A stretch of DNA of 10,754 nt, taken from UHGV virus genome UHGV-0300898; one strand, 5' to 3'. This document shows, in pieces, positions 323 through 6,902 of this stretch. The notes beneath the pieces are model-generated. The model was not told the DNA's origin and made no database searches. It worked only from the letters and a program-made list of their open reading frames with translations. The DNA comes from a virus. Position 1 is the first letter of the stretch, and the number at the start of each line of letters is the position of its first letter. Made by a program: the position numbers and the translations under genes.

Positions 323-450
323 GGGTGACCCAAGCTAAATTTTAATGATGTTACATATCTTTAGTTTAAACTGTATTATTTCCATACGTACTCCTTTAAA
401 GCCAACTGACTGTCTCCCTTTAATAATATCTATCCAAAAAATAATAGAAA

Positions 451-506: not shown

Positions 507-2801
507 TTACTTACCAGCAGCAGCTTTGCCTTCGCCAGCAACGTTACCTGCTACACCACCTTCGGTTTGTTTCTGACCGTTCTGTTCAACAGAAACATTG
601 TAAGCCAGTTTTTCTTCAACCAGTTTGGTGATGCCTTTAACCCAGATCAGACCAGTGATCGGGCAGTGGCAGATGTGCGCGTTACGCGGCTGTACGGCCA
701 GCTCTTTAGAGGTAGAGCCGTTACGCTGAATGTTGATGTTAGTAACCATGATCGGAGACCAGAAGTGGTTACCCCAGTTCAGCACGTTGTAGGAACCATC
801 GTCCGCAGTCGGAACTTTCAGGAACCATTGCAGACGACGAGTCCAGGAACCGTCAGCTGCGTTGTAGATACGCCAGCGGTCATCGTTGGTGGTGATCACT
901 TCGTATTCGTAGCGATCGCCCAGCAGACGTTGGTCGCCCTGTACCAGCAGCAGCATGGATGCAGTCGGTTCGTCGGTTGCAATAACAACCTTCGGCAGAA
1001 TGTCCGGATCGGCAGTGTACAGACGCAGCGCAGGAATGAAGCGAGATTCCTGGATAGCCTGAGTTACCTGATTACCGATACGCTGTACCAGGCCCTGACG
1101 AGCGTTGATCAGTGCATCTTTGGTATCCAGGGACTGTACAACTTCATCAACGTTGTAGTCAGACTCTTTGAACCACGGAGCAACCCAGTGACGGCCCAGA
1201 CCACGAATGGCCGGTTTGTCCCACGGAGTGATCATGCTTGCAGCAGCGTTACGTACCGCTTCGGTGTAAGACAGCGTCTGAGTGATAGCCAGCTGTTCGT
1301 TACGGATGTTAACTGCGGAAATCAGGTCGTCCAGACGTTCGGTATCGTCGTATTCAACACCAACCGGAGACTTGGTCAGAATCGGAGAACCGTATTGCAG
1401 TTTGTAGTTTTCTTGTTCCCAGATTGGGTCAAGCAGCAGACCCTGGGTACGACGGTTTTCGTTGGTACGAGTACCATCGAAGCGCCAGCCCATCAGTTCG
1501 AGCTTCAGACCTTCCAGAACAACTTTGCCGGTACCAGATTTGGTATCAACCTTGTTACCGGTAGCGTCGTACAGACCTTCGATTTCCAGTTTGTGACCCG
1601 CGATGTCAACTTTACCACCAAACTGACCGGTAGTGAACAGAGACATGTTGATGGTGATCACATAACGCAGGGTGTAGGAGTTCTGTTCCAGTGTTTTCAG
1701 AGCCGGAATAGCTGCACCAGTCCAGTCGGTAGTTTTCGCGTTCAGAGAGAATGCGGTACGACGGAATTGCAGTACCAGCTCACGGCCATCGCCTTCAGCA
1801 GGACGCTGGAAGGTTGCGAACTGCATGTCACGAACGTGCAGTTTGATGAATTTACCTGCTTTCGCTTCTTCGGTCGGTTTACGTACAGAAATCAGCAGGC
1901 TGCCCAGAGCACAACCCGGTGCGATTTCATCAGTTTCGTCGTAACCTTCCTGAACGATACCCGGATGCGCAGACAGCTGGAACAGGTTCAGAGTGTCTTT
2001 AGCAAAGCTCAGGTAGTTAGTCGGGTACGGAGGTACACGGCCCAGACGAACAGATTCGTTCGGTACCAGATCTTCGCTTACGAAGTATTCAGCGTTTTCA
2101 CCGGTTTCCATTACGTAAGGAACGATGTTGATCGCTTCGTCCTGGAGAACGGTGTGGTCGGTCAGCGCGTTGTGCAGCGGACGACGATGATCTTCAACAA
2201 CGTCTTTGCTCAGCAGTGCGTTCATTACACCGCGAGAAACGGTGGTCACTTTGGTACGTACGGTAATACCAACATCGTTGGTGTCAACAGTGATGGTCGG
2301 GAACAGAGTCTCAGCGAAACGAGACTGGGTTTCCAGAGCACGTACGTTCAGCGTCCAGGTCAGACCCAGGTTTTTGTCGTAGTCTTTGTTGGTGTAGTAT
2401 TCCTGAGCGACAACCATACGCTCTTTGCCCCAGTCGCCGTTACCAGCTTGGGAACCAGGAATCGCAACGTCCAGGTTAAAACGGCTATGGAATTCTGGTT
2501 TAGCGTATTCTTGCGCTACTTTTTCTTGCAGGTCCATACCGTGACCAGCAGCACCCAGAATCATTGCAGAAGCAACTTCCGCAGCGTGGGACATTTTCTT
2601 ACCGCCAGCAAACGCGTTTGCGTAGTGCTGTGCAGCGTCGTCACGCAGGGTACCAAAAACTTTCGTGTTGCTACGTACAGATTCACCAGCAACGATGGTG
2701 TTCCACATTTCGCCAGCACTGTTGTTACTAATGACGCTTTGTACCAGCGAGTTACCAGCTTGTACGAGTTTCTCCAGATTAGAGATTCGGGTATCTTTCA
2801 T
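507..2801 (-). CDS. major virion structural protein, probably major capsid protein of a jumbo-type phage (764 aa); tail sheath is the alternative
   Basis: Longest ORF in the window. Codon usage is strongly biased toward high-expression codons (CGT, GGT, CTG, AAC, ACC, GAA), so strongly that the antisense strand carries an uninterrupted 752-aa artefactual ORF. SD TAAGGT lies 9 nt upstream of the ATG and a strong terminator follows the stop. Size matches the ~750-aa capsid proteins of phiKZ-like phages as I recall them. No homology search was possible. Confidence 0.85.
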   Translation of the reverse strand: MKDTRISNLEKLVQAGNSLVQSVISNNSAGEMWNTIVAGESVRSNTKVFGTLRDDAAQHYANAFAGGKKMSHAAEVASAMILGAAGHGMDLQEKVAQEYAKPEFHSRFNLDVAIPGSQAGNGDWGKERMVVAQEYYTNKDYDKNLGLTWTLNVRALETQSRFAETLFPTITVDTNDVGITVRTKVTTVSRGVMNALLSKDVVEDHRRPLHNALTDHTVLQDEAINIVPYVMETGENAEYFVSEDLVPNESVRLGRVPPYPTNYLSFAKDTLNLFQLSAHPGIVQEGYDETDEIAPGCALGSLLISVRKPTEEAKAGKFIKLHVRDMQFATFQRPAEGDGRELVLQFRRTAFSLNAKTTDWTGAAIPALKTLEQNSYTLRYVITINMSLFTTGQFGGKVDIAGHKLEIEGLYDATGNKVDTKSGTGKVVLEGLKLELMGWRFDGTRTNENRRTQGLLLDPIWEQENYKLQYGSPILTKSPVGVEYDDTERLDDLISAVNIRNEQLAITQTLSYTEAVRNAAASMITPWDKPAIRGLGRHWVAPWFKESDYNVDEVVQSLDTKDALINARQGLVQRIGNQVTQAIQESRFIPALRLYTADPDILPKVVIATDEPTASMLLLVQGDQRLLGDRYEYEVITTNDDRWRIYNAADGSWTRRLQWFLKVPTADDGSYNVLNWGNHFWSPIMVTNINIQRNGSTSKELAVQPRNAHICHCPITGLIWVKGITKLVEEKLAYNVSVEQNGQKQTEGGVAGNVAGEGKAAAGK

Positions 2802-2813
2802 TTGTTTAATACC

Positions 2814-3338
2814 TTAATGAGATAAATGACATGCGTATAATTGCGTCAGCACTTCGTTAGCGGCAAACTGCGTTGAGGTACTGAAGCAGTCATCCACGAC
2901 GCGAGTCTTGGTACGCATATATTTAAAAAGTTCTGCGCAGAACATCTTTTTCGCAGCGTGGTCTTCACCCGAAGAAAAACCCGAACCGGACTTTGCTTCT
3001 GCAAATGACGCCACAATCGTATCACCACGTTGAGTAAACACCCAACGTACGCGACAAGGAATTGTTTCCCCATATAAATCGTCAAGGGAAACCTTTTCGC
3101 CTGATTCGACCAGACGTAACACCTGATCATAATATTTACCTGGAAGCACAGGCGGAGCCATCAGTGCTTTATAAATAGCAGAACGACTTACTTCAGGTAA
3201 GATGATAGAACTGAAACCATTCGGACAGTCATATAACCAGTTAAAGAACCCTGCCTGGAGCAATTCTATACTTTTAACGGCAGCGCCTTTATCTATGTTA
3301 GGTTGAACTTCCCACGGTGGACTAAAACGAATTTGCAT
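2814..3338 (-). CDS. hypothetical protein (174 aa)
   Basis: Complete ORF in the track. SD GGAG lies 9 nt upstream of the ATG at 3338. Its stop TAA (2816..2814) overlaps the SD of the downstream 764-aa gene, giving a tightly packed co-directional pair. Confidence 0.7.
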   Translation of the reverse strand: MQIRFSPPWEVQPNIDKGAAVKSIELLQAGFFNWLYDCPNGFSSIILPEVSRSAIYKALMAPPVLPGKYYDQVLRLVESGEKVSLDDLYGETIPCRVRWVFTQRGDTIVASFAEAKSGSGFSSGEDHAAKKMFCAELFKYMRTKTRVVDDCFSTSTQFAANEVLTQLYACHLSH

Positions 3339-3351
3339 TTAAGGATGCTCC

Positions 3352-4914
3352 ATGAATAACAAAATGATGTTGATAACCGCCTTAGCCACATTATACGCTG
3401 AAAGTCTTCTGACCGATCCTGAAAAGGACCACGACATCATAAGAAAAGTGCTGTTAGAGGCTAAGCTTCCTGATTACGCAGAGGAAGGTGACGAACGTGC
3501 CGCCCTCGTCGAAATCAAGGATATCATCACATCCATCATAGACGGCGGTATGCCTTACGACCACACAAACGTCATGAAACGTTTGAAACTGGCCACTACG
3601 CAAATACGTCCTCTATACGATACGATTACCAAATTCCTGGAAGATGATATTCCAGAAGAACCAGAAGCACGCATCGAGCATCTTAATCGCCAAGTAGCAC
3701 AATACTACTTTCAGTTACGTCAAGCTATTCAAGGCGTACAACTGAAACAAAAATTGGGTCGTACGTTAGGCGCACTGAACGGTACCGAAACGCGCGTTGA
3801 TTTACAAACGGCGCTCAACGACCTTAAGGATACCTTATCCACGTTCAGTGAACGCTCTCATAATAAGATTCCTTCTCTGGTAGGGGAATTGATTACTGAC
3901 AATAAAGCACCTTTCGTGCACGTATTCGACTCTATCAGTAAGAAAGCGGCAGGGAACGGGTTGCGTACAGGTTGGAAAGCAATTAACCAGATGCTCGGTT
4001 GTAACAAAGGGATCACCGAAGAACTCTGGCTGATGCCTGCTCTCCCCTTTAACTGTAAGTCATTATTCAGTTTATTGCTCTCTATTAGCATTCCCGTTTT
4101 CAACACCCCAGAAAAGGTGATGGCGAATGTTAAGGGTGATCTACAACCGGTTATTCTAGATTTAAGTTTAGAAAACGAATTGGATGTTAACTTGGCTTAC
4201 GCGTATCAGGCACTATACGGACACTTTGAAGGTACAGCCCCGGTAATGGTTGCGCCAGAAACCGCAACTGACGAAGAAAAAGCGTCACATAATGCACAAA
4301 TGTCAGACTACCTCTGTAGTAAGATGCGGGCGAACGGTTGGGAGTATATTTTCCAAAAACACACAAACTCCGATTTTAAAATTCACTATTTAAACGATTT
4401 GATTTTAGATTTAAAACGTCGAGGTTATCATGTAGCTGGAATACGCGGAGACTATTTCGGTACTATCAGCAAAGCAGGGCACGGTAACGGCATTGCGGGT
4501 AGCGACATTAAAGAAATTTATCGTATCGCGCGAAACATCCAAGTGGTACGTAATCGTGGTTTCCTGTTAGCACCACACCAAATCTCACCAGAAGGCAAAA
4601 AATTAAAAGCACTCGACCCAGCAAGTTTCTGTAAGAACTTACCTGGTCGTGGTCTTCACGACAACTGCTCTAGCTTAGACAACGAAGCTGACGGTGAGAT
4701 GTATTTTAACAAACGTGTCGTCAACGGTCACAGCTATTTAGAAGTACAACGCGGTAAACACCGTACCATTATTGATACCAAAGAAGCTTATCATTATACT
4801 GTAATACCTTTCCGCGATGTTGGCATTTTGCCATGGGATTGTGATAAAGAAGAAACTGTAACAGCCTCGTCGATTAACGTATTTACCGGCGGCATGGGTG
4901 ACGAACTCTTTTGA
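3352..4914 (+). CDS. hypothetical protein (520 aa); helical, charged N-terminal region; no recognisable catalytic motif
   Basis: Complete ORF. SD AAGGA at 3340-3344 with a 7-nt spacer to the ATG. TGA stop is followed immediately by a GC hairpin at 4919-4936. The only plus-strand gene in the window. Confidence 0.8.
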   Translation: MNNKMMLITALATLYAESLLTDPEKDHDIIRKVLLEAKLPDYAEEGDERAALVEIKDIITSIIDGGMPYDHTNVMKRLKLATTQIRPLYDTITKFLEDDIPEEPEARIEHLNRQVAQYYFQLRQAIQGVQLKQKLGRTLGALNGTETRVDLQTALNDLKDTLSTFSERSHNKIPSLVGELITDNKAPFVHVFDSISKKAAGNGLRTGWKAINQMLGCNKGITEELWLMPALPFNCKSLFSLLLSISIPVFNTPEKVMANVKGDLQPVILDLSLENELDVNLAYAYQALYGHFEGTAPVMVAPETATDEEKASHNAQMSDYLCSKMRANGWEYIFQKHTNSDFKIHYLNDLILDLKRRGYHVAGIRGDYFGTISKAGHGNGIAGSDIKEIYRIARNIQVVRNRGFLLAPHQISPEGKKLKALDPASFCKNLPGRGLHDNCSSLDNEADGEMYFNKRVVNGHSYLEVQRGKHRTIIDTKEAYHYTVIPFRDVGILPWDCDKEETVTASSINVFTGGMGDELF

Positions 4915-4918
4915 GTCT

Positions 4919-4936
4919 GGGGAGCTTCGGCTCCCC
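4919..4936 (+). terminator. stable hairpin GGGGAGC-UUCG-GCUCCCC directly after the 520-aa gene; no U-tract, so either a 3' stability element or a non-canonical terminator
   Basis: Perfect 7-bp GC stem with a UUCG tetraloop, 4 nt after the stop codon. Followed by CTATAACCCC rather than a T-run. Confidence 0.4.
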
Positions 4937-5019
4937 CTATAACCCCTTATGCGTCTCGAAAAACAAAAAAAAACAGAAGGCTATTAATTATGAACGGAAA
5001 ACAACTACCGAACTAAGTA

Positions 5020-5046
5020 GGGGGTGGTAGCAACACCCCCTTTATT
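5020..5046 (+). terminator. intrinsic terminator, GGGGGTG-loop-CACCCCC plus TTTATT (first member of a three-copy terminator family)
   Basis: 7-bp stem 5020-5026/5034-5040, 7-nt loop, then TTTATT at 5041-5046. Preceded by an 8-codon mini-ORF (4990..5016) that has an SD. Confidence 0.55.
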
Positions 5047-5159
5047 AGTTAGTAACTTATCTCCTTAGAGGTGGTTGCTGAACATTATGGTTGTTAACCG
5101 TTTTCATTACCTTTCGTAATGTTGTAAAAACGTCAACAACTTTATGTGTTGATGCCGTA

Positions 5160-5189
5160 CAGCAGAGACTGGCGGAACAGTCTCTGCTG
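5160..5189 (+). other. perfect 12-bp hairpin (CAGCAGAGACTG / CAGTCTCTGCTG, 6-nt loop) abutting repeat copy 1
   Basis: Exact reverse-complement arms at 5160-5171 and 5178-5189. The position-equivalent hairpin before copy 2 (5561-5586) has an unrelated sequence but the same architecture. Confidence 0.7.
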
Positions 5190-5232
5190 CTTTAACTTCT
5201 CTTTGGAAAAGTTAAAGCTATGAAAAGGGGTG
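5187..5232 (+). repeat. 46-nt conserved element, copy 1 (CTGCTTTAACTTCTCTTTGGAAAAGTTAAAGCTATGAAAAGGGGTG); contains a 9-bp inverted repeat CTTTAACTT-N10-AAGTTAAAG
   Basis: 45/46 identical to 5586..5631, the single mismatch being 5224 A versus 5623 T. The copies are offset by exactly 399 bp. The internal inverted repeat is 5190-5198/5209-5217. Confidence 0.85.
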
Positions 5233-5250
5233 GTGGTGCACCCCTTTTTA
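5227..5250 (+). terminator. intrinsic terminator GGGGTG-GTGGTG-CACCCC plus TTTTTA (family copy 2)
   Basis: 6-bp GC stem, 6-nt loop, then a T5 run at 5245-5249. It begins inside the conserved element. Confidence 0.55.
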
Positions 5251-5291
5251 TTATACTTACGACCACCATCTCGGCAGGTTACTGTACGAGG

Positions 5292-5326
5292 AGGAGAGGC
5301 GCTGACACGCCTCTCCTTTATTTGTT
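5292..5326 (+). terminator. intrinsic terminator, stem GGAGAGGCG/CGCCTCTCC with loop CTGACA, followed by TTTATTTGTT
   Basis: Perfect 9-bp stem 5293-5301/5308-5316, extendable with flanking A-T and G-U pairs, followed by a T-rich tract. Confidence 0.6.
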
Positions 5327-5498
5327 AGTAGTGTTCACTCCTCTTTTCAGTGAATATCCGCGTGAAACGGTTGGTAGACGGTTTTAACCGTTTATCCATG
5401 CCGAGCTGACTATACTTGTAGATACGTTGCTGTAAATTGGTCTTTGCTGCACTCTGCTCTGCAAGCATTTTGTCGGTAAAGTAGTAACCATTGTTCAT
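5325..5498 (-). CDS. small basic hypothetical protein, 57 aa (MNNGYYFTDKMLAEQSAAKTNLQQRIYKYSQLGMDKRLKPSTNRFTRIFTEKRSEHY)
   Basis: Below the 60-aa cutoff of the ORF track and found by hand translation. ATG at 5498..5496 is preceded by SD GAGGG with a 6-nt spacer; TAA stop at 5327..5325. It lies between the two copies of the 46-nt element. Confidence 0.35.
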   Translation of the reverse strand: MNNGYYFTDKMLAEQSAAKTNLQQRIYKYSQLGMDKRLKPSTNRFTRIFTEKRSEHY

Positions 5499-5531
5499 GG
5501 TAAGCCCTCTTTGTAGGGTGATTAAAGAAAT

Positions 5532-5551
5532 CCACTACGGAAACGTAGTGG
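5532..5551 (+). other. perfect 8-bp hairpin CCACTACG-GAAA-CGTAGTGG with a GNRA-type tetraloop
   Basis: Exact inverted repeat with a GAAA loop, about 35 nt upstream (minus sense) of the 57-aa ORF start. Confidence 0.6.
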
Positions 5552-5560
5552 TGTTGTAAA

Positions 5561-5586
5561 GGGTACGCTGTAGCACCAGCGTACCC
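5561..5586 (+). other. perfect 10-bp hairpin (GGGTACGCTG / CAGCGTACCC, loop TAGCAC) abutting repeat copy 2
   Basis: Same position relative to the conserved element as the 5160-5189 hairpin, with a completely different stem sequence. Confidence 0.7.
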
Positions 5587-5631
5587 TGCTTTAACTTCTC
5601 TTTGGAAAAGTTAAAGCTATGATAAGGGGTG
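5586..5631 (+). repeat. 46-nt conserved element, copy 2
   Basis: See copy 1; 45/46 identity at a 399-bp offset. Confidence 0.85.
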
Positions 5632-5656
5632 TGACAGCACCCCTTTATTTTATTTA
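5626..5656 (+). terminator. intrinsic terminator GGGGTG-TGACAG-CACCCC plus TTTATTTTATTT (family copy 3)
   Basis: Same stem as 5227-5244 with a different loop, followed by a long T-rich tract. Confidence 0.6.
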
Positions 5657-5749
5657 GTAGTTACTTCTCCTTTCGGTGAAGATTTGTACTCGTCGATTAT
5701 TAGAAGGTTTAAACCTTTTATTTAATCCAAGCTGTTGAATTTGCGAAAA

Positions 5750-5799
5750 TAAATAAAGTGTACCCCTAATCCTTTTCGGGATTAGGGGTTGCTTTTATT
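5750..5799. terminator. bidirectional intrinsic terminator (10-bp perfect stem CCCCTAATCC/GGATTAGGGG)
   Basis: Stem 5763-5772/5779-5788 with loop TTTTCG. A T-rich tract follows on the plus strand (5789-5799) and an A-rich tract precedes it (5750-5760), which is a U-tract on the minus strand. Sits directly after the stop of the 271-aa minus-strand gene. Confidence 0.75.
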
Positions 5800-6610
5800 T
5801 AGTCGCTACGTATTGAACATGGCCACATTCTTTACATTCCACGTTGGCTTTCGGGATTGTCAGGCCGGTTAAAGGAACACGGATTTGATACTGTGCTCCA
5901 CATTCTTCACAAACAAAATCGTATTCTGGATAGACACGACCTTCTAATTTCTCTTCTTTCCTTAGTGTGCCTGCTAAGAACAGCATCGCACCTAACGCTT
6001 CATTAATCTGCTGTTCCCATTCTCCGTCTAACGGGTAAGCGAACGCACGAGTCAACGTTTCCACCATCTCTGGAGTATTACTTACATAAACGTGTTTCAG
6101 TTCAAACTCAACACGTTGCAAGCCGAACAATACGCGCGCCGTCACGGTAACATTATCCAACGTTTGTGCAAACACAACGGGATTATCGTCACCATACATT
6201 GCGAATAACGCAGCACGTTCGTATTCGATATCACTCCACTCGATTAGTTCTACAGATTTAATCGCTTCCGCAATCTCAGCATTACCGAACGTTTCGTGTT
6301 CCAATAATCCGACGATAACTTCATTCAACGATTTCAATTGCTGTAATCGAATCGTAGGATCGGTATTCACGATAAGTAAACGATGCATTCTGGATTTCAA
6401 CCAGTTAATCGTTCCTTCTACACCGCCCCCAAACGAGCAGATGCTTATCACTTCAGGTTCACGAAGGATAAGAGTTGATTTTCCTGCTGCCGTACTCAAG
6501 TAGAGTTTAAAAGACTTATCGTTAGACTCTGCAACGATGGCAATGTCTTCAGTTGGAACGAAGTTTTCATTGCTCAGCCCACGCGGAAAATAATCTTTAA
6601 TAGTAATCAT
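5795..6610 (-). CDS. hypothetical protein with a C-terminal CxxC-N22-CxxC zinc-ribbon (271 aa)
   Basis: Complete ORF. SD GGAG is 8 nt upstream of the ATG at 6610. C-terminus reads ...VCEECGAQYQIRVPLTGLTIPKANVECKECGHVQY. Terminator immediately downstream. Confidence 0.75.
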   Translation of the reverse strand: MITIKDYFPRGLSNENFVPTEDIAIVAESNDKSFKLYLSTAAGKSTLILREPEVISICSFGGGVEGTINWLKSRMHRLLIVNTDPTIRLQQLKSLNEVIVGLLEHETFGNAEIAEAIKSVELIEWSDIEYERAALFAMYGDDNPVVFAQTLDNVTVTARVLFGLQRVEFELKHVYVSNTPEMVETLTRAFAYPLDGEWEQQINEALGAMLFLAGTLRKEEKLEGRVYPEYDFVCEECGAQYQIRVPLTGLTIPKANVECKECGHVQYVATK

Positions 6611-6664: not shown

Positions 6665-6808
6665 TTAACCACGACCAGTGCACTGTGCAACGGAATTACC
6701 GTTGTCGATGCAAGTGTCGTAGCCTTTGTCGATATCCAGGTACAGGCAACCCAGAACAACAGCGATAACAACAGCGAAGATAGCTTTTTTGTGTTTTACA
6801 GAAATCAT
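6665..6808 (-). CDS. small putative lipoprotein or membrane protein, 47 aa (MISVKHKKAIFAVVIAVVLGC|LYLDIDKGYDTCIDNGNSVAQCTGRG)
   Basis: Below the ORF-track cutoff. ATG at 6808..6806 is preceded by the perfect SD AGGAG with a 7-nt spacer. N-terminus has a basic region, then a hydrophobic stretch, then VVLGC, which fits the lipobox pattern. Leu at +2. Dedicated terminator downstream. Confidence 0.55.
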   Translation of the reverse strand: MISVKHKKAIFAVVIAVVLGCLYLDIDKGYDTCIDNGNSVAQCTGRG

Positions 6809-6902
6809 GATATAACTCCTAATTAGGTATTCGATAAATGAGTATTACGTAAACTCTCACCTAGGTAATATATATCTGAAATCTTTTTGAATCCATATAC
6901 CC

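What the first reader, a model, noticed from the sequence alone, without database searches (positions are those of the whole stretch)
5020..5656. Family of three GGGGTG-loop-CACCCC terminators with variable loops
The hairpins at 5020-5040, 5227-5244 and 5626-5643 share a GGGG(G)TG/CACCCC(C) stem and a following TTTATT-type tract but have different loops (GTAGCAA, GTGGTG, TGACAG). Each follows within 10-30 nt of an ATG preceded by a GCTAT-type sequence (GCTATTAATTATGA, GCTATGAAAA, GCTATGATAA). Stem conservation with loop variation is consistent with a reused terminator module and possibly a short leader-like unit.
Basis: seen in the sequence. Interest (0 to 1): 0.45.

Follow-up and report, generated by a model that had tools for sequence, protein, structure and literature searches.

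The report
Repeated terminator hairpins between small phage genes
The three look-alike hairpins are real, but they are copies of one two-way transcription stop signal that sits behind each of several tiny, duplicated and reshuffled genes on the opposite strand of a giant (SPN3US-like) phage genome, so this is an ordinary kind of element rather than a new leader or regulatory unit.

Summary
GGGGTG-loop-CACCCC occurs three times (5021-5039, 5227-5244, 5626-5643), against 0 expected by chance.

The window comes from an SPN3US/phiEaH2-like jumbo phage. The hairpins lie in an 880-bp gap between the converging helicase gene (+) and a 271-aa gene (-).

The genes they accompany are on the minus strand. 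They form an array of small paralogous ORFs (48-61 aa, pN/pS about 0.18). In this window only one is intact (5325-5498); three are deletion relics. Each hairpin sits 5-10 nt after a stop codon of such a gene.

Two of the three hairpins belong to a roughly 100-nt three-hairpin spacer, C-B-A:
- C is the GGGGTG hairpin.
- B is a near-invariant AU-rich hairpin.
- A is a GC hairpin with 7 of 11 covarying pairs.

I found 19 distinct copies of this spacer in 13 related metagenomic contigs. Gene content and order of the array differ between almost all of them.

The 'GCTATG' ATG is not conserved and starts no conserved ORF.

T-tracts are conserved on the + strand (22 of 23 copies), while TTAT or TTTT follows on the gene strand. 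The best reading is two-way terminator or insulator hairpins inherited with each gene cassette. They are local to this array, not a genome-wide module.

Hairpin loops often flip to their exact reverse complement between relatives.

Interest is low to moderate.

The parts
5020..5040 (.). Hairpin C1 (GGGGGTG-GTAGCAA-CACCCCC). It is the terminator at the point where the helicase gene (+) meets the last small gene of the array (-). The + strand tail is TTTATTAG.
   Evidence: It is present at the end of the array in every relative, whichever gene is last.
5227..5244 (.). Hairpin C2 (GGGGTG-GTGGTG-CACCCC). It follows the stop codon of the SL gene relic on the minus strand. It is flanked by an A-tract and a T-tract on both strands.
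5626..5643 (.). Hairpin C3 (GGGGTG-TGACAG-CACCCC). It lies 10 nt after the stop codon of the S2 gene relic on the minus strand. TTAT follows on the minus strand and TTTATTTTATTT on the + strand.
5189..5218 (-). Hairpin B, copy 2: GCTTTAACTTTTC-CAAA-GAGAAGTTAAAGC on the minus strand. It has 13 pairs including one U.G.
   Evidence: Folding energy is -15.9 kcal/mol on the minus strand and -12.7 on the + strand.
5588..5617 (-). Hairpin B, copy 3. It is 100% identical to copy 2.
5160..5189 (-). Hairpin A, copy 2 (CAGCAGAGACTG-loop-CAGTCTCTGCTG). It abuts B and lies upstream of the S3 leader.
5560..5587 (-). Hairpin A, copy 3 (AGGGTACGCTG-loop-CAGCGTACCCT). The stem sequence differs from copy 2 but the position is the same. 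It lies upstream of the S57 leader.
5290..5319 (.). Hairpin C' (GGAGAGGCG-loop-CGCCTCTCC). It has a different stem but the same position as C, directly after the S57 stop codon. The + strand tail is TTTATTTG.
   Evidence: Its homologue in L003 is followed directly by B and A.
5325..5498 (-). S57, the only intact small gene of the array in this window (57 aa, ribosome-binding site AAGAGGG).
   Evidence: pS is 0.3-0.39 against pN of 0.06-0.07 when compared with orthologues.
5057..5107 (-). Relic of small gene S3. A 118-bp in-frame deletion flanked by GAAAA microhomology leaves 16 codons.
5257..5289 (-). Relic 3' end of small gene SL (SYSNLPRWWS*).
5654..5743 (-). Relic 3' half of small gene S2 (...RVQIFTERRSNY*).
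5762..5789 (.). T0, a two-way terminator hairpin after the 271-aa gene. It marks the upstream edge of the array on the minus strand.
   Evidence: Its loop is CGAAAA in 8 relatives and TTTTCG in 5.
5532..5551 (-). Leader hairpin between A3 and the S57 ribosome-binding site.
4917..4936 (+). Hairpin directly after the helicase stop codon, with no T-tract. It is conserved in SPN3US and Asesino.
3352..4914 (+). DnaB-like helicase gene. It is the only + strand gene whose transcripts could run into the hairpins.
5795..6610 (-). 271-aa gene (homologue of SPN3US gp196), upstream of the array on the minus strand.
6856..6881 (-). Nearest match to the SPN3US-derived early-promoter-like motif (TTTCAGATATATATTACCTAGGTGAG). 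It is the probable start of the minus-strand transcription unit that runs into the array.

Best explanation
The three hairpins are copies, related by descent, of one intrinsic-terminator-type palindrome. Each copy sits directly behind a small paralogous gene, or the relic of one, on the minus strand. These genes form a variable array between the 271-aa gene and the converging helicase gene of an SPN3US-like jumbo phage.

Each internal copy is the first hairpin of a roughly 100-nt three-hairpin spacer, C-B-A, that separates successive gene cassettes.

How it most likely works, all of it inferred:
1. The hairpins act in both directions.
2. On the + strand, C has a full T-tract. C1 ends the helicase transcript, and the internal copies are back-up stops that shield the minus-strand unit from antisense read-through.
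3. On the minus strand, C has only a short TTAT or TTTT tail. It therefore attenuates rather than blocks, so the array is read as an operon. After transcription C also caps the 3' end of each cistron.
4. B and A fold in that minus-strand RNA at the front of the next cistron.

What is shown here: the positions, the homology, the covariation, which strand carries the genes, that the T-tracts are conserved, and that the module is confined to this array. Actual termination and its direction are inferred.
For: Position and strand:
- The hairpins are non-random.
- The small ORFs are on the minus strand and under purifying selection.
- Every C copy lies 5-12 nt after one of their stop codons.

Homologous site in SPN3US:
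- SPN3US has GGGGTGTTCGAGCACCCC followed by TTTTAACT directly after the stop of small gene gp195 at the same locus.

Tails of the hairpins:
- At least 5 T in the + strand tail in 22 of 23 distinct copies, against 6 of 23 on the gene strand.
- The phiKZ terminator motif is a stem-loop followed by TTAT (PMC10914365). TTAT-containing tails are also common after SPN3US hairpins.

The spacer and its RNA strand:
- 19 distinct C-B-A copies gave 98.9% paired cells. Helix A has 7 of 11 pairs changed on both sides.
- B carries an invariant U.G on the minus strand. All single-sided changes in A and B give G.U on that strand. So RNA polymerase must pass C on the minus strand.

Local rather than genome-wide:
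- B pattern scans and the covariance model found the module only in these arrays.
- No early-promoter-like motif lies inside the array. The nearest is at 6856-6881 on the minus strand.

Outgroup:
- Asesino has no array. It has a single hairpin flanked by an A-tract and a T-tract where the two genes converge.
Against: - No transcript data exist for this phage or its close relatives. Termination, its efficiency and its direction are untested.
- By the canonical rule the minus-strand tails are weak, and C1 has none (TACTTAGT).
- In SPN3US, hairpins that follow genes on the same strand almost never carry a T-tract on the opposite strand (2 of 36). The conserved + strand T-tracts of the internal copies are therefore unusual and not fully explained.
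- No + strand promoter or gene other than the helicase is known that would need six back-up stops.
- B's near-invariant sequence is not explained by a terminator role.
Confidence: 0.6

Rival explanations
1. RNA processing and stability elements rather than terminators. The minus-strand polycistronic RNA would be cut in the AU-rich linker between C and B. C would then protect the 3' end of the upstream cistron, and B-A would protect the 5' end of the downstream cistron. This overlaps with the main explanation rather than excluding it.
For: - A and B are selected as minus-strand RNA hairpins: G.U-only single changes and an invariant U.G.
- Weak U-tracts follow C on that strand.
- The type of A hairpin always goes with the downstream gene, and C and the linker go with the upstream gene.
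Against: - No cleavage data exist.
- This reading does not explain the conserved + strand T-tract next to C (22 of 23 copies).
Confidence: 0.25
2. These would be + strand terminators, each coupled to a short upstream ATG or leader unit. A variant of this model treats the TATG as a phiKZ-type late promoter that fires into the hairpin.
For: - Canonical + strand terminator shape.
- TATG is the phiKZ late-promoter core, with G at +1 (PMC7598289). It lies 6-7 nt before C2 and C3.
Against: - The ATG/TATG is absent from 5 of 19 distinct copies, including near-identical relatives.
- The ORFs starting there are not conserved and have no ribosome-binding site.
- A transcript from the TATG would be only about 30 nt.
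- The sequence before C1 is unrelated to the B-C linker.
Confidence: 0.07
3. The conserved B hairpin, or the whole C-B-A unit, would mainly be a recombination joint. Gene cassettes would be exchanged, deleted or duplicated at it, by homologous or site-specific recombination. Any effect on transcription would be secondary.
For: - Array content and order differ in almost every relative. Observed neighbours include S1-S3, S1-S2, S1-SL, S1-S57, SL-S3, SL-S2, SL-S57 and S2-S57.
- B loop variants combine with different upstream and downstream partners.
- B changes far less than synonymous sites do: 1 change in 30 nt at pS of about 0.35.
- PeSL elements of T4-type phages set a precedent (PMC2839356, PMC4122927).
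Against: - The deletions mapped in this window end at microhomologies, not inside B.
- No recombinase was seen in the window or annotated in the syntenic SPN3US and SPAsTU regions, though I made no dedicated search.
- SPN3US has the same GC/AU/GC hairpin layout with a different AU hairpin. This suggests B arose from paired U- and A-tracts of back-to-back terminators.
Confidence: 0.12
4. A + strand small RNA made of A-B-C, with C acting as its Rho-independent terminator. It would be antisense to the leaders of the small genes.
For: - The layout, a 5' hairpin followed by an AU-rich hairpin and then a terminator with a U-tail, resembles bacterial sRNAs.
- Its length would be about 95 nt.
Against: - B has an invariant C.A mismatch on the + strand. 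All single-sided changes in A and B would be mismatches on that strand.
- No promoter-like site lies upstream on the + strand.
- No Rfam family reaches its threshold; the best match is McaS at 23.9 bits against a gathering score of 42.
Confidence: 0.04

Closest known systems
Two-way (bidirectional) intrinsic terminators between converging bacterial or phage genes
   Same: A GC-rich palindromic stem flanked by an A-tract on one side and a T-tract on the other, placed where transcription from the two strands meets. C1 occupies exactly this position. Asesino has a single such hairpin there.
   Different: The internal copies C2 and C3 lie between genes that point the same way. Their stronger face points against those genes. 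Two further hairpins follow them.
Conserved terminator motifs of phiKZ and 201phi2-1 (stem-loop followed by TTAT; PMC10914365, PMC11512511)
   Same: A related group of jumbo phages that encode their own RNA polymerases. Many of their terminators share one stem sequence. TTAT follows the stem: on the + strand in all three copies here, and on the minus strand in C3.
   Different: The stem sequence differs (GGGGTG/CACCCC against CCYCCCC/GGGRRGG). The phiKZ motif occurs about 60 times across its genome, whereas this one is confined to a single array. SPN3US has only 3 copies in 240 kb.
PeSL, the promoter-early stem-loop cassettes of T4-type phages (PMC2839356, PMC4122927)
   Same: Conserved stem-loop-containing spacers that flank small genes of unknown function in a variable region. 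Gene gain, loss and reshuffling between close relatives map to them.
   Different: No promoter half was found. The repeats occur at one locus only. The genes they flank are paralogues of each other, not unrelated ORFs.
Inversion of the spacer of short inverted repeats by template switching (PMC8604942; chloroplast hairpins, PMC2903610)
   Same: The loops of perfect hairpins are replaced by their exact reverse complement between close relatives: 13 such pairs in 10 stem families.
   Different: Here it is seen in a phage array of terminator hairpins. B, whose stem is not a perfect palindrome, never flips.

Membership tests
Intrinsic (Rho-independent) terminator | GC-rich stem-loop | tested here: met
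   Stems of 6-8 pairs with at least 5 G-C pairs. Folding energy is -13 to -21 kcal/mol with flanks, and z is -3.2 to -4.6.
Intrinsic (Rho-independent) terminator | T/U-rich tract directly after the stem on the transcribed strand | tested here: met
   Met on the + strand for all three, and in 22 of 23 relatives' copies. On the minus strand it is only partly met: TTAT or TTTT in C3 and C2, none in C1, and 6 of 23 copies overall.
Intrinsic (Rho-independent) terminator | Lies downstream of a gene on the same strand | tested here: inconclusive
   On the minus strand all three follow stop codons of small genes or their relics. On the + strand only the helicase lies upstream; C1 is 105 nt after its stop, C2 about 310 nt and C3 about 710 nt.
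Intrinsic (Rho-independent) terminator | RNA 3' ends and transcript release at the site | not testable with these tools
   No transcript data were available.
phiKZ-type conserved terminator motif (BCCYCCCCHWWDGGGRRGGBYTTATKYYGT) | The shared stem sequence CCYCCCC...GGGRRGG | tested here: not met
   The stem here is GGGGTG...CACCCC.
phiKZ-type conserved terminator motif (BCCYCCCCHWWDGGGRRGGBYTTATKYYGT) | TTAT after the stem, and many copies at gene ends across the genome | tested here: inconclusive
   TTAT is present. The many-copies part fails: the nearest complete genome, SPN3US, has only 3 copies, 2 of them at gene ends. The full genome that holds this window was not available.
PeSL (promoter-early stem-loop) | A composite of a terminator stem-loop with an early promoter | tested here: not met
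   A matrix built from the SPN3US motif AGATAGATATTATCT scores 27-30 at 414-439 and 6856-6881. Nothing in 4915-5794 reaches a score of 6.
PeSL (promoter-early stem-loop) | Flanks insertions, deletions and gene swaps between close relatives | tested here: met
   Array composition differs in nearly all of the 13 relatives' loci.
PeSL (promoter-early stem-loop) | Dispersed over several variable regions of the genome | tested here: not met
   The B pattern occurs only at this locus in ten contigs of 150-228 kb. The covariance model found nothing elsewhere in SPN3US.
Leader peptide or attenuator unit | A conserved start codon and short ORF upstream of the terminator | tested here: not met
   The ATG is lost in close relatives, and ORF lengths are inconsistent at 4, 8, 12 and 55 codons.
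Described RNA families (Rfam 15) | A match at or above the family's gathering score | tested here: not met
   The best match is McaS at 23.9 bits against a gathering score of 42. All others are lower.

The most novel reading that the evidence does not exclude
The C-B-A spacer could be the jumbo-phage counterpart of a gene-cassette joint. On this reading the near-invariant, orientation-fixed B hairpin (13-nt arms, 4-5-nt loop) is a specific recognition site. A phage protein, possibly one of the small basic array proteins, would bind it as RNA or as single-stranded DNA. It would either drive exchange of small-gene cassettes or regulate all of them together.
Probability: 0.12. Interest if true: 0.65.

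Novelty: new member of a known kind. Interest (0 to 1): 0.3.

Why it matters
For annotation, the result settles the strand question. The real genes in this gap are tiny ORFs on the minus strand, most of them decayed in this window. The hairpins are their 3' flanks. There are no + strand leaders.

More broadly, it gives a compact example in a nucleus-forming-type jumbo phage lineage of a variable array of small genes. Its spacers are hairpin clusters conserved much more strongly than the genes they separate.

If the strand-asymmetric behaviour is real, meaning leaky for sense transcription and tight for antisense, these hairpins would be useful insulator parts. They would also be a test case for how phage-encoded multisubunit RNA polymerases terminate.

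The frequent loop flips are a clean natural record of template switching at hairpins in a phage.

Tried and rejected
- tRNA/tmRNA scan of the window: nothing found.
- Rfam at permissive thresholds, on the whole window and again on 5000-5800: only chance-level matches.
- blastn of 4900-5830 against 50,697 phage records at distant sensitivity: no match. The gap sequence is absent from isolated phages. Relatives had to be found by pattern scans of IMG/VR and metagenome contigs.
I used the complete SPN3US genome instead.
- Sigma-70 promoter scan: no excess of sites (13 found against 16.8 expected) and none useful in the array.
- Early promoter inside the module, the PeSL idea: rejected by the motif-matrix scan.
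- B as a double-stranded DNA operator: I consider this unlikely. Variation is confined to the 4-5 loop positions, includes a length change, and the three pairs next to the loop never vary.
- Replication origin next to the helicase: set aside, because array content varies freely between relatives and the array is absent in Asesino.
- Type I toxin-antitoxin: set aside. The small proteins are hydrophilic and basic, and the evidence on which strand folds argues against a + strand RNA.
- Pfam and PHROGs on the small proteins: no family, except that the SPAsTU/SPN3US 48-aa type matches phrog_18219, of unknown function.
- Not run: the large protein homology searches and structure prediction. The function of the small proteins is peripheral to the finding.

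Full report
**1. The observation**

The three hairpins exist at the stated coordinates with the stated loops and + strand tails. GGGGTG-N4-9-CACCCC matches only those three places in the window. It matched none of 200 dinucleotide-preserving shuffles. Each hairpin folds far better than shuffled sequence on either strand, with z between -3.2 and -4.6.

Copies 2 and 3 are embedded in a 105-nt direct repeat, 5150-5254 and 5549-5653. Its core 34 nt are identical in the two copies.

**2. Where the window comes from, and which strand is coding**

The window is about 80% identical over its capsid and helicase genes to the SPN3US, phiEaH2 and Asesino group of jumbo phages. The finding lies in the 880-bp gap between the helicase gene (3352-4914, +) and a 271-aa gene (5795-6610, -) that converge on each other.

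The gap has no match among 50,697 isolated phage genomes. Pattern and protein scans did recover homologous gaps in 4 IMG/VR contigs and 9 metagenome loci.

These relatives show that the gap holds an array of small paralogous genes on the minus strand.
- There are six types, which I label S1, S2, S57, S3, SL and S6. They are 48-61 aa long and 15-31% identical to one another.
- Orthologue comparisons give pS of 0.3-0.39 against pN of 0.06-0.07 for S57, with similar ratios for SL and S2. These are real protein-coding genes.
- In this window only S57 (5325-5498) is intact.
- S3 has lost 118 bp between GAAAA microhomologies. S2 and SL survive only as 3' ends.

Each GGGGTG hairpin begins 5-12 nt after the stop codon of one of these minus-strand genes or relics.

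**3. The larger unit**

B is GCTTTAACTTTTC-loop-GAGAAGTTAAAGC.

I collected 19 distinct copies. On their alignment 98.9% of cells pair.

| Helix | Result |
|---|---|
| A | 7 of 11 pairs changed on both sides; 100% paired |
| B | 12 of 13 pairs invariant; one compensatory A-U to U-A swap, with A.A and G.U intermediates |
| C | largely invariant |

- B has an invariant U.G on the minus strand, which is a C.A mismatch on the + strand. It folds at -15.9 against -12.7 kcal/mol.
- All three single-sided changes in A, and the one in B, give G.U on the minus strand. This is suggestive rather than proof: four of four, about 1 in 16 by chance. It points to A and B being selected as hairpins of the minus-strand RNA.
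- For that RNA to exist, polymerase must pass C on that strand.
- The type of A hairpin always goes with the downstream gene. C and the linker go with the upstream gene. B is the common joint.

**4. The 'ATG preceded by GCTAT'**

In copies 2 and 3 this is the B-C linker read on the wrong strand. In relatives it appears as GCTAAGA, GCTTTGA, GCGTAAAAA, GCGAGGAGG or GCGCCTATGG.

The sequence before C1 is unrelated to it, and its ATG heads ORFs of 8 or 4 codons. The 55-codon + strand ORF at 5220 overlaps S57 on the opposite strand and has no ribosome-binding site. The leader idea is not supported.

**5. Local or genome-wide?**

- The B pattern occurs only at this locus in ten contigs of 150-228 kb.
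- A covariance model of C-B-A scores 88-109 bits on the arrays of this clade. Elsewhere it finds nothing except two weak hits at the homologous SPN3US junctions.
- SPN3US has three GGGGTG..CACCCC sites in 240 kb. One follows small gene gp195 at the homologous locus, with the tail TTTTAACT on the gene strand. One follows the tail-fibre gene. One is inside a gene.
- Asesino has no array, only one hairpin flanked by an A-tract and a T-tract at the convergence point.

The family is therefore a product of cassette duplication at one variable site. It is not a module reused across the genome.

**6. Direction of action**

By the canonical rule the hairpins face the + strand. At least 5 T occur in the tail in 22 of 23 distinct copies on the + strand, against 6 of 23 on the gene strand. 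The scan tool calls C1, A2, C', A3, C3 and T0 as + strand terminators.

This is unusual for the family. In SPN3US, strong hairpins between same-direction genes carry the T-rich tail on the gene strand in about 20 of 36 cases. They carry it on the opposite strand in only 2 of 36.

On the gene strand, C is followed by TTAT or TTTT. phiKZ terminators are a stem-loop followed by TTAT (PMC10914365), and TTAT is common in SPN3US tails.

No copy of the SPN3US-derived early-promoter-like motif lies in the array. That motif is AGATAGATATTATCT, with about 15 intergenic copies including one upstream of an RNA polymerase gene. The window's two copies are at 414-439 and 6856-6881, both on the minus strand. 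The array is therefore probably reached by read-through from the unit that starts near 6881.

The most economical reading is that the hairpins work in both directions. They would be tight against + strand (helicase or antisense) transcription, and leaky on the gene strand, where they would also cap 3' ends.

SPN3US and SPAsTU have the same GC/AU/GC three-hairpin layout before their first small gene. There the AU hairpin is formed by the U-tract of the first hairpin pairing with the A-tract of the third. This suggests B arose from the paired tracts of back-to-back terminators.

**7. What remains unexplained**

B changes far less than synonymous sites, with 1 loop change in 30 nt at pS of about 0.35. 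It also never inverts. A terminator role does not account for this. A recognition or recombination role, comparable to PeSL (PMC2839356, PMC4122927), cannot be excluded. However, the PeSL-defining promoter and genome-wide dispersal were tested and not met.

**8. Seen in passing**

The loops of the perfect hairpins often differ between close relatives by exact reverse complementation. There are 13 such pairs in 10 stem families, including C, A, C', T0 and a leader hairpin. Inverted-repeat spacer inversion by template switching would produce this (PMC8604942, PMC2903610).

**9. Verdict**

This is a real repeat family with an ordinary kind of function: terminator or insulator hairpins inherited with duplicated small-gene cassettes. 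The leader reading is wrong and the genome-wide reading is not supported. Novelty is modest, resting on the conserved three-hairpin spacer and the strand asymmetry. Interest is 0.3.

Noticed in passing
window 5027-5033, 5172-5177, 5571-5576, 5632-5637, 5773-5778, and the homologous hairpins in L002-L018: Loops of perfect hairpins are replaced by their exact reverse complement between near-identical relatives. I found 13 such pairs in 10 stem families, for example C3 CTGTCA/TGACAG, A3 GTGCTA/TAGCAC, A2 TTCCGC/GCGGAA, and T0 with CGAAAA in 8 copies and TTTTCG in 5. B, whose stem is not a perfect palindrome, never flips.
   Followed up: partly
window 414-439 (-) and 6856-6881 (-); SPN3US L139-L143: An over-represented SPN3US motif, cAGATAGATATTATCTnnGTGA, has about 15 intergenic copies, including one upstream of an RNA polymerase subunit gene. 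It looks like this group's early promoter. The window has two strong matches. One lies just after the capsid gene terminator and one lies before a 47-aa membrane-like ORF (6665-6808).
   Followed up: partly
window 507-2801 (-) and 567-2825 (+): The major capsid gene (764 aa, minus strand) is shadowed by an almost full-length 752-aa open reading frame on the opposite strand. This is probably a codon-usage artefact.
   Followed up: no
window 5057-5107, 5257-5289, 5654-5743: Three of the four small genes of the array are relics in this window. One lost 118 bp between GAAAA repeats, and another junction shows TCG microhomology. This copy of the array is therefore decaying.
   Followed up: yes
window 4917-4975; L139 17900-17985; L144 6835-6900: The stretch just after the helicase stop codon is conserved across three genera. 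It consists of a hairpin without a T-tract, then TTATGCGTC, then a run of about nine A. Its function is unknown.
   Followed up: no
L139 17338-17440 (SPN3US) and L001 6100-6205 (SPAsTU): The junction before the first small gene in Seoulvirus phages has the same three-hairpin layout of GC, AU-rich and GC hairpins. The sequences differ from those in this window.
   Followed up: partly
window 5661-5667 versus 5605-5611 (minus strand): The 3' coding end of the S1/S2-type genes (GAAAGGAGAAGTAAC) resembles the loop and 3' arm of B (AAAGAGAAGTTAAAGC). The shared GAGAAGT could pair alternatively with the 5' arm of B. This could be a trace of B's origin or a coincidence.
   Followed up: no
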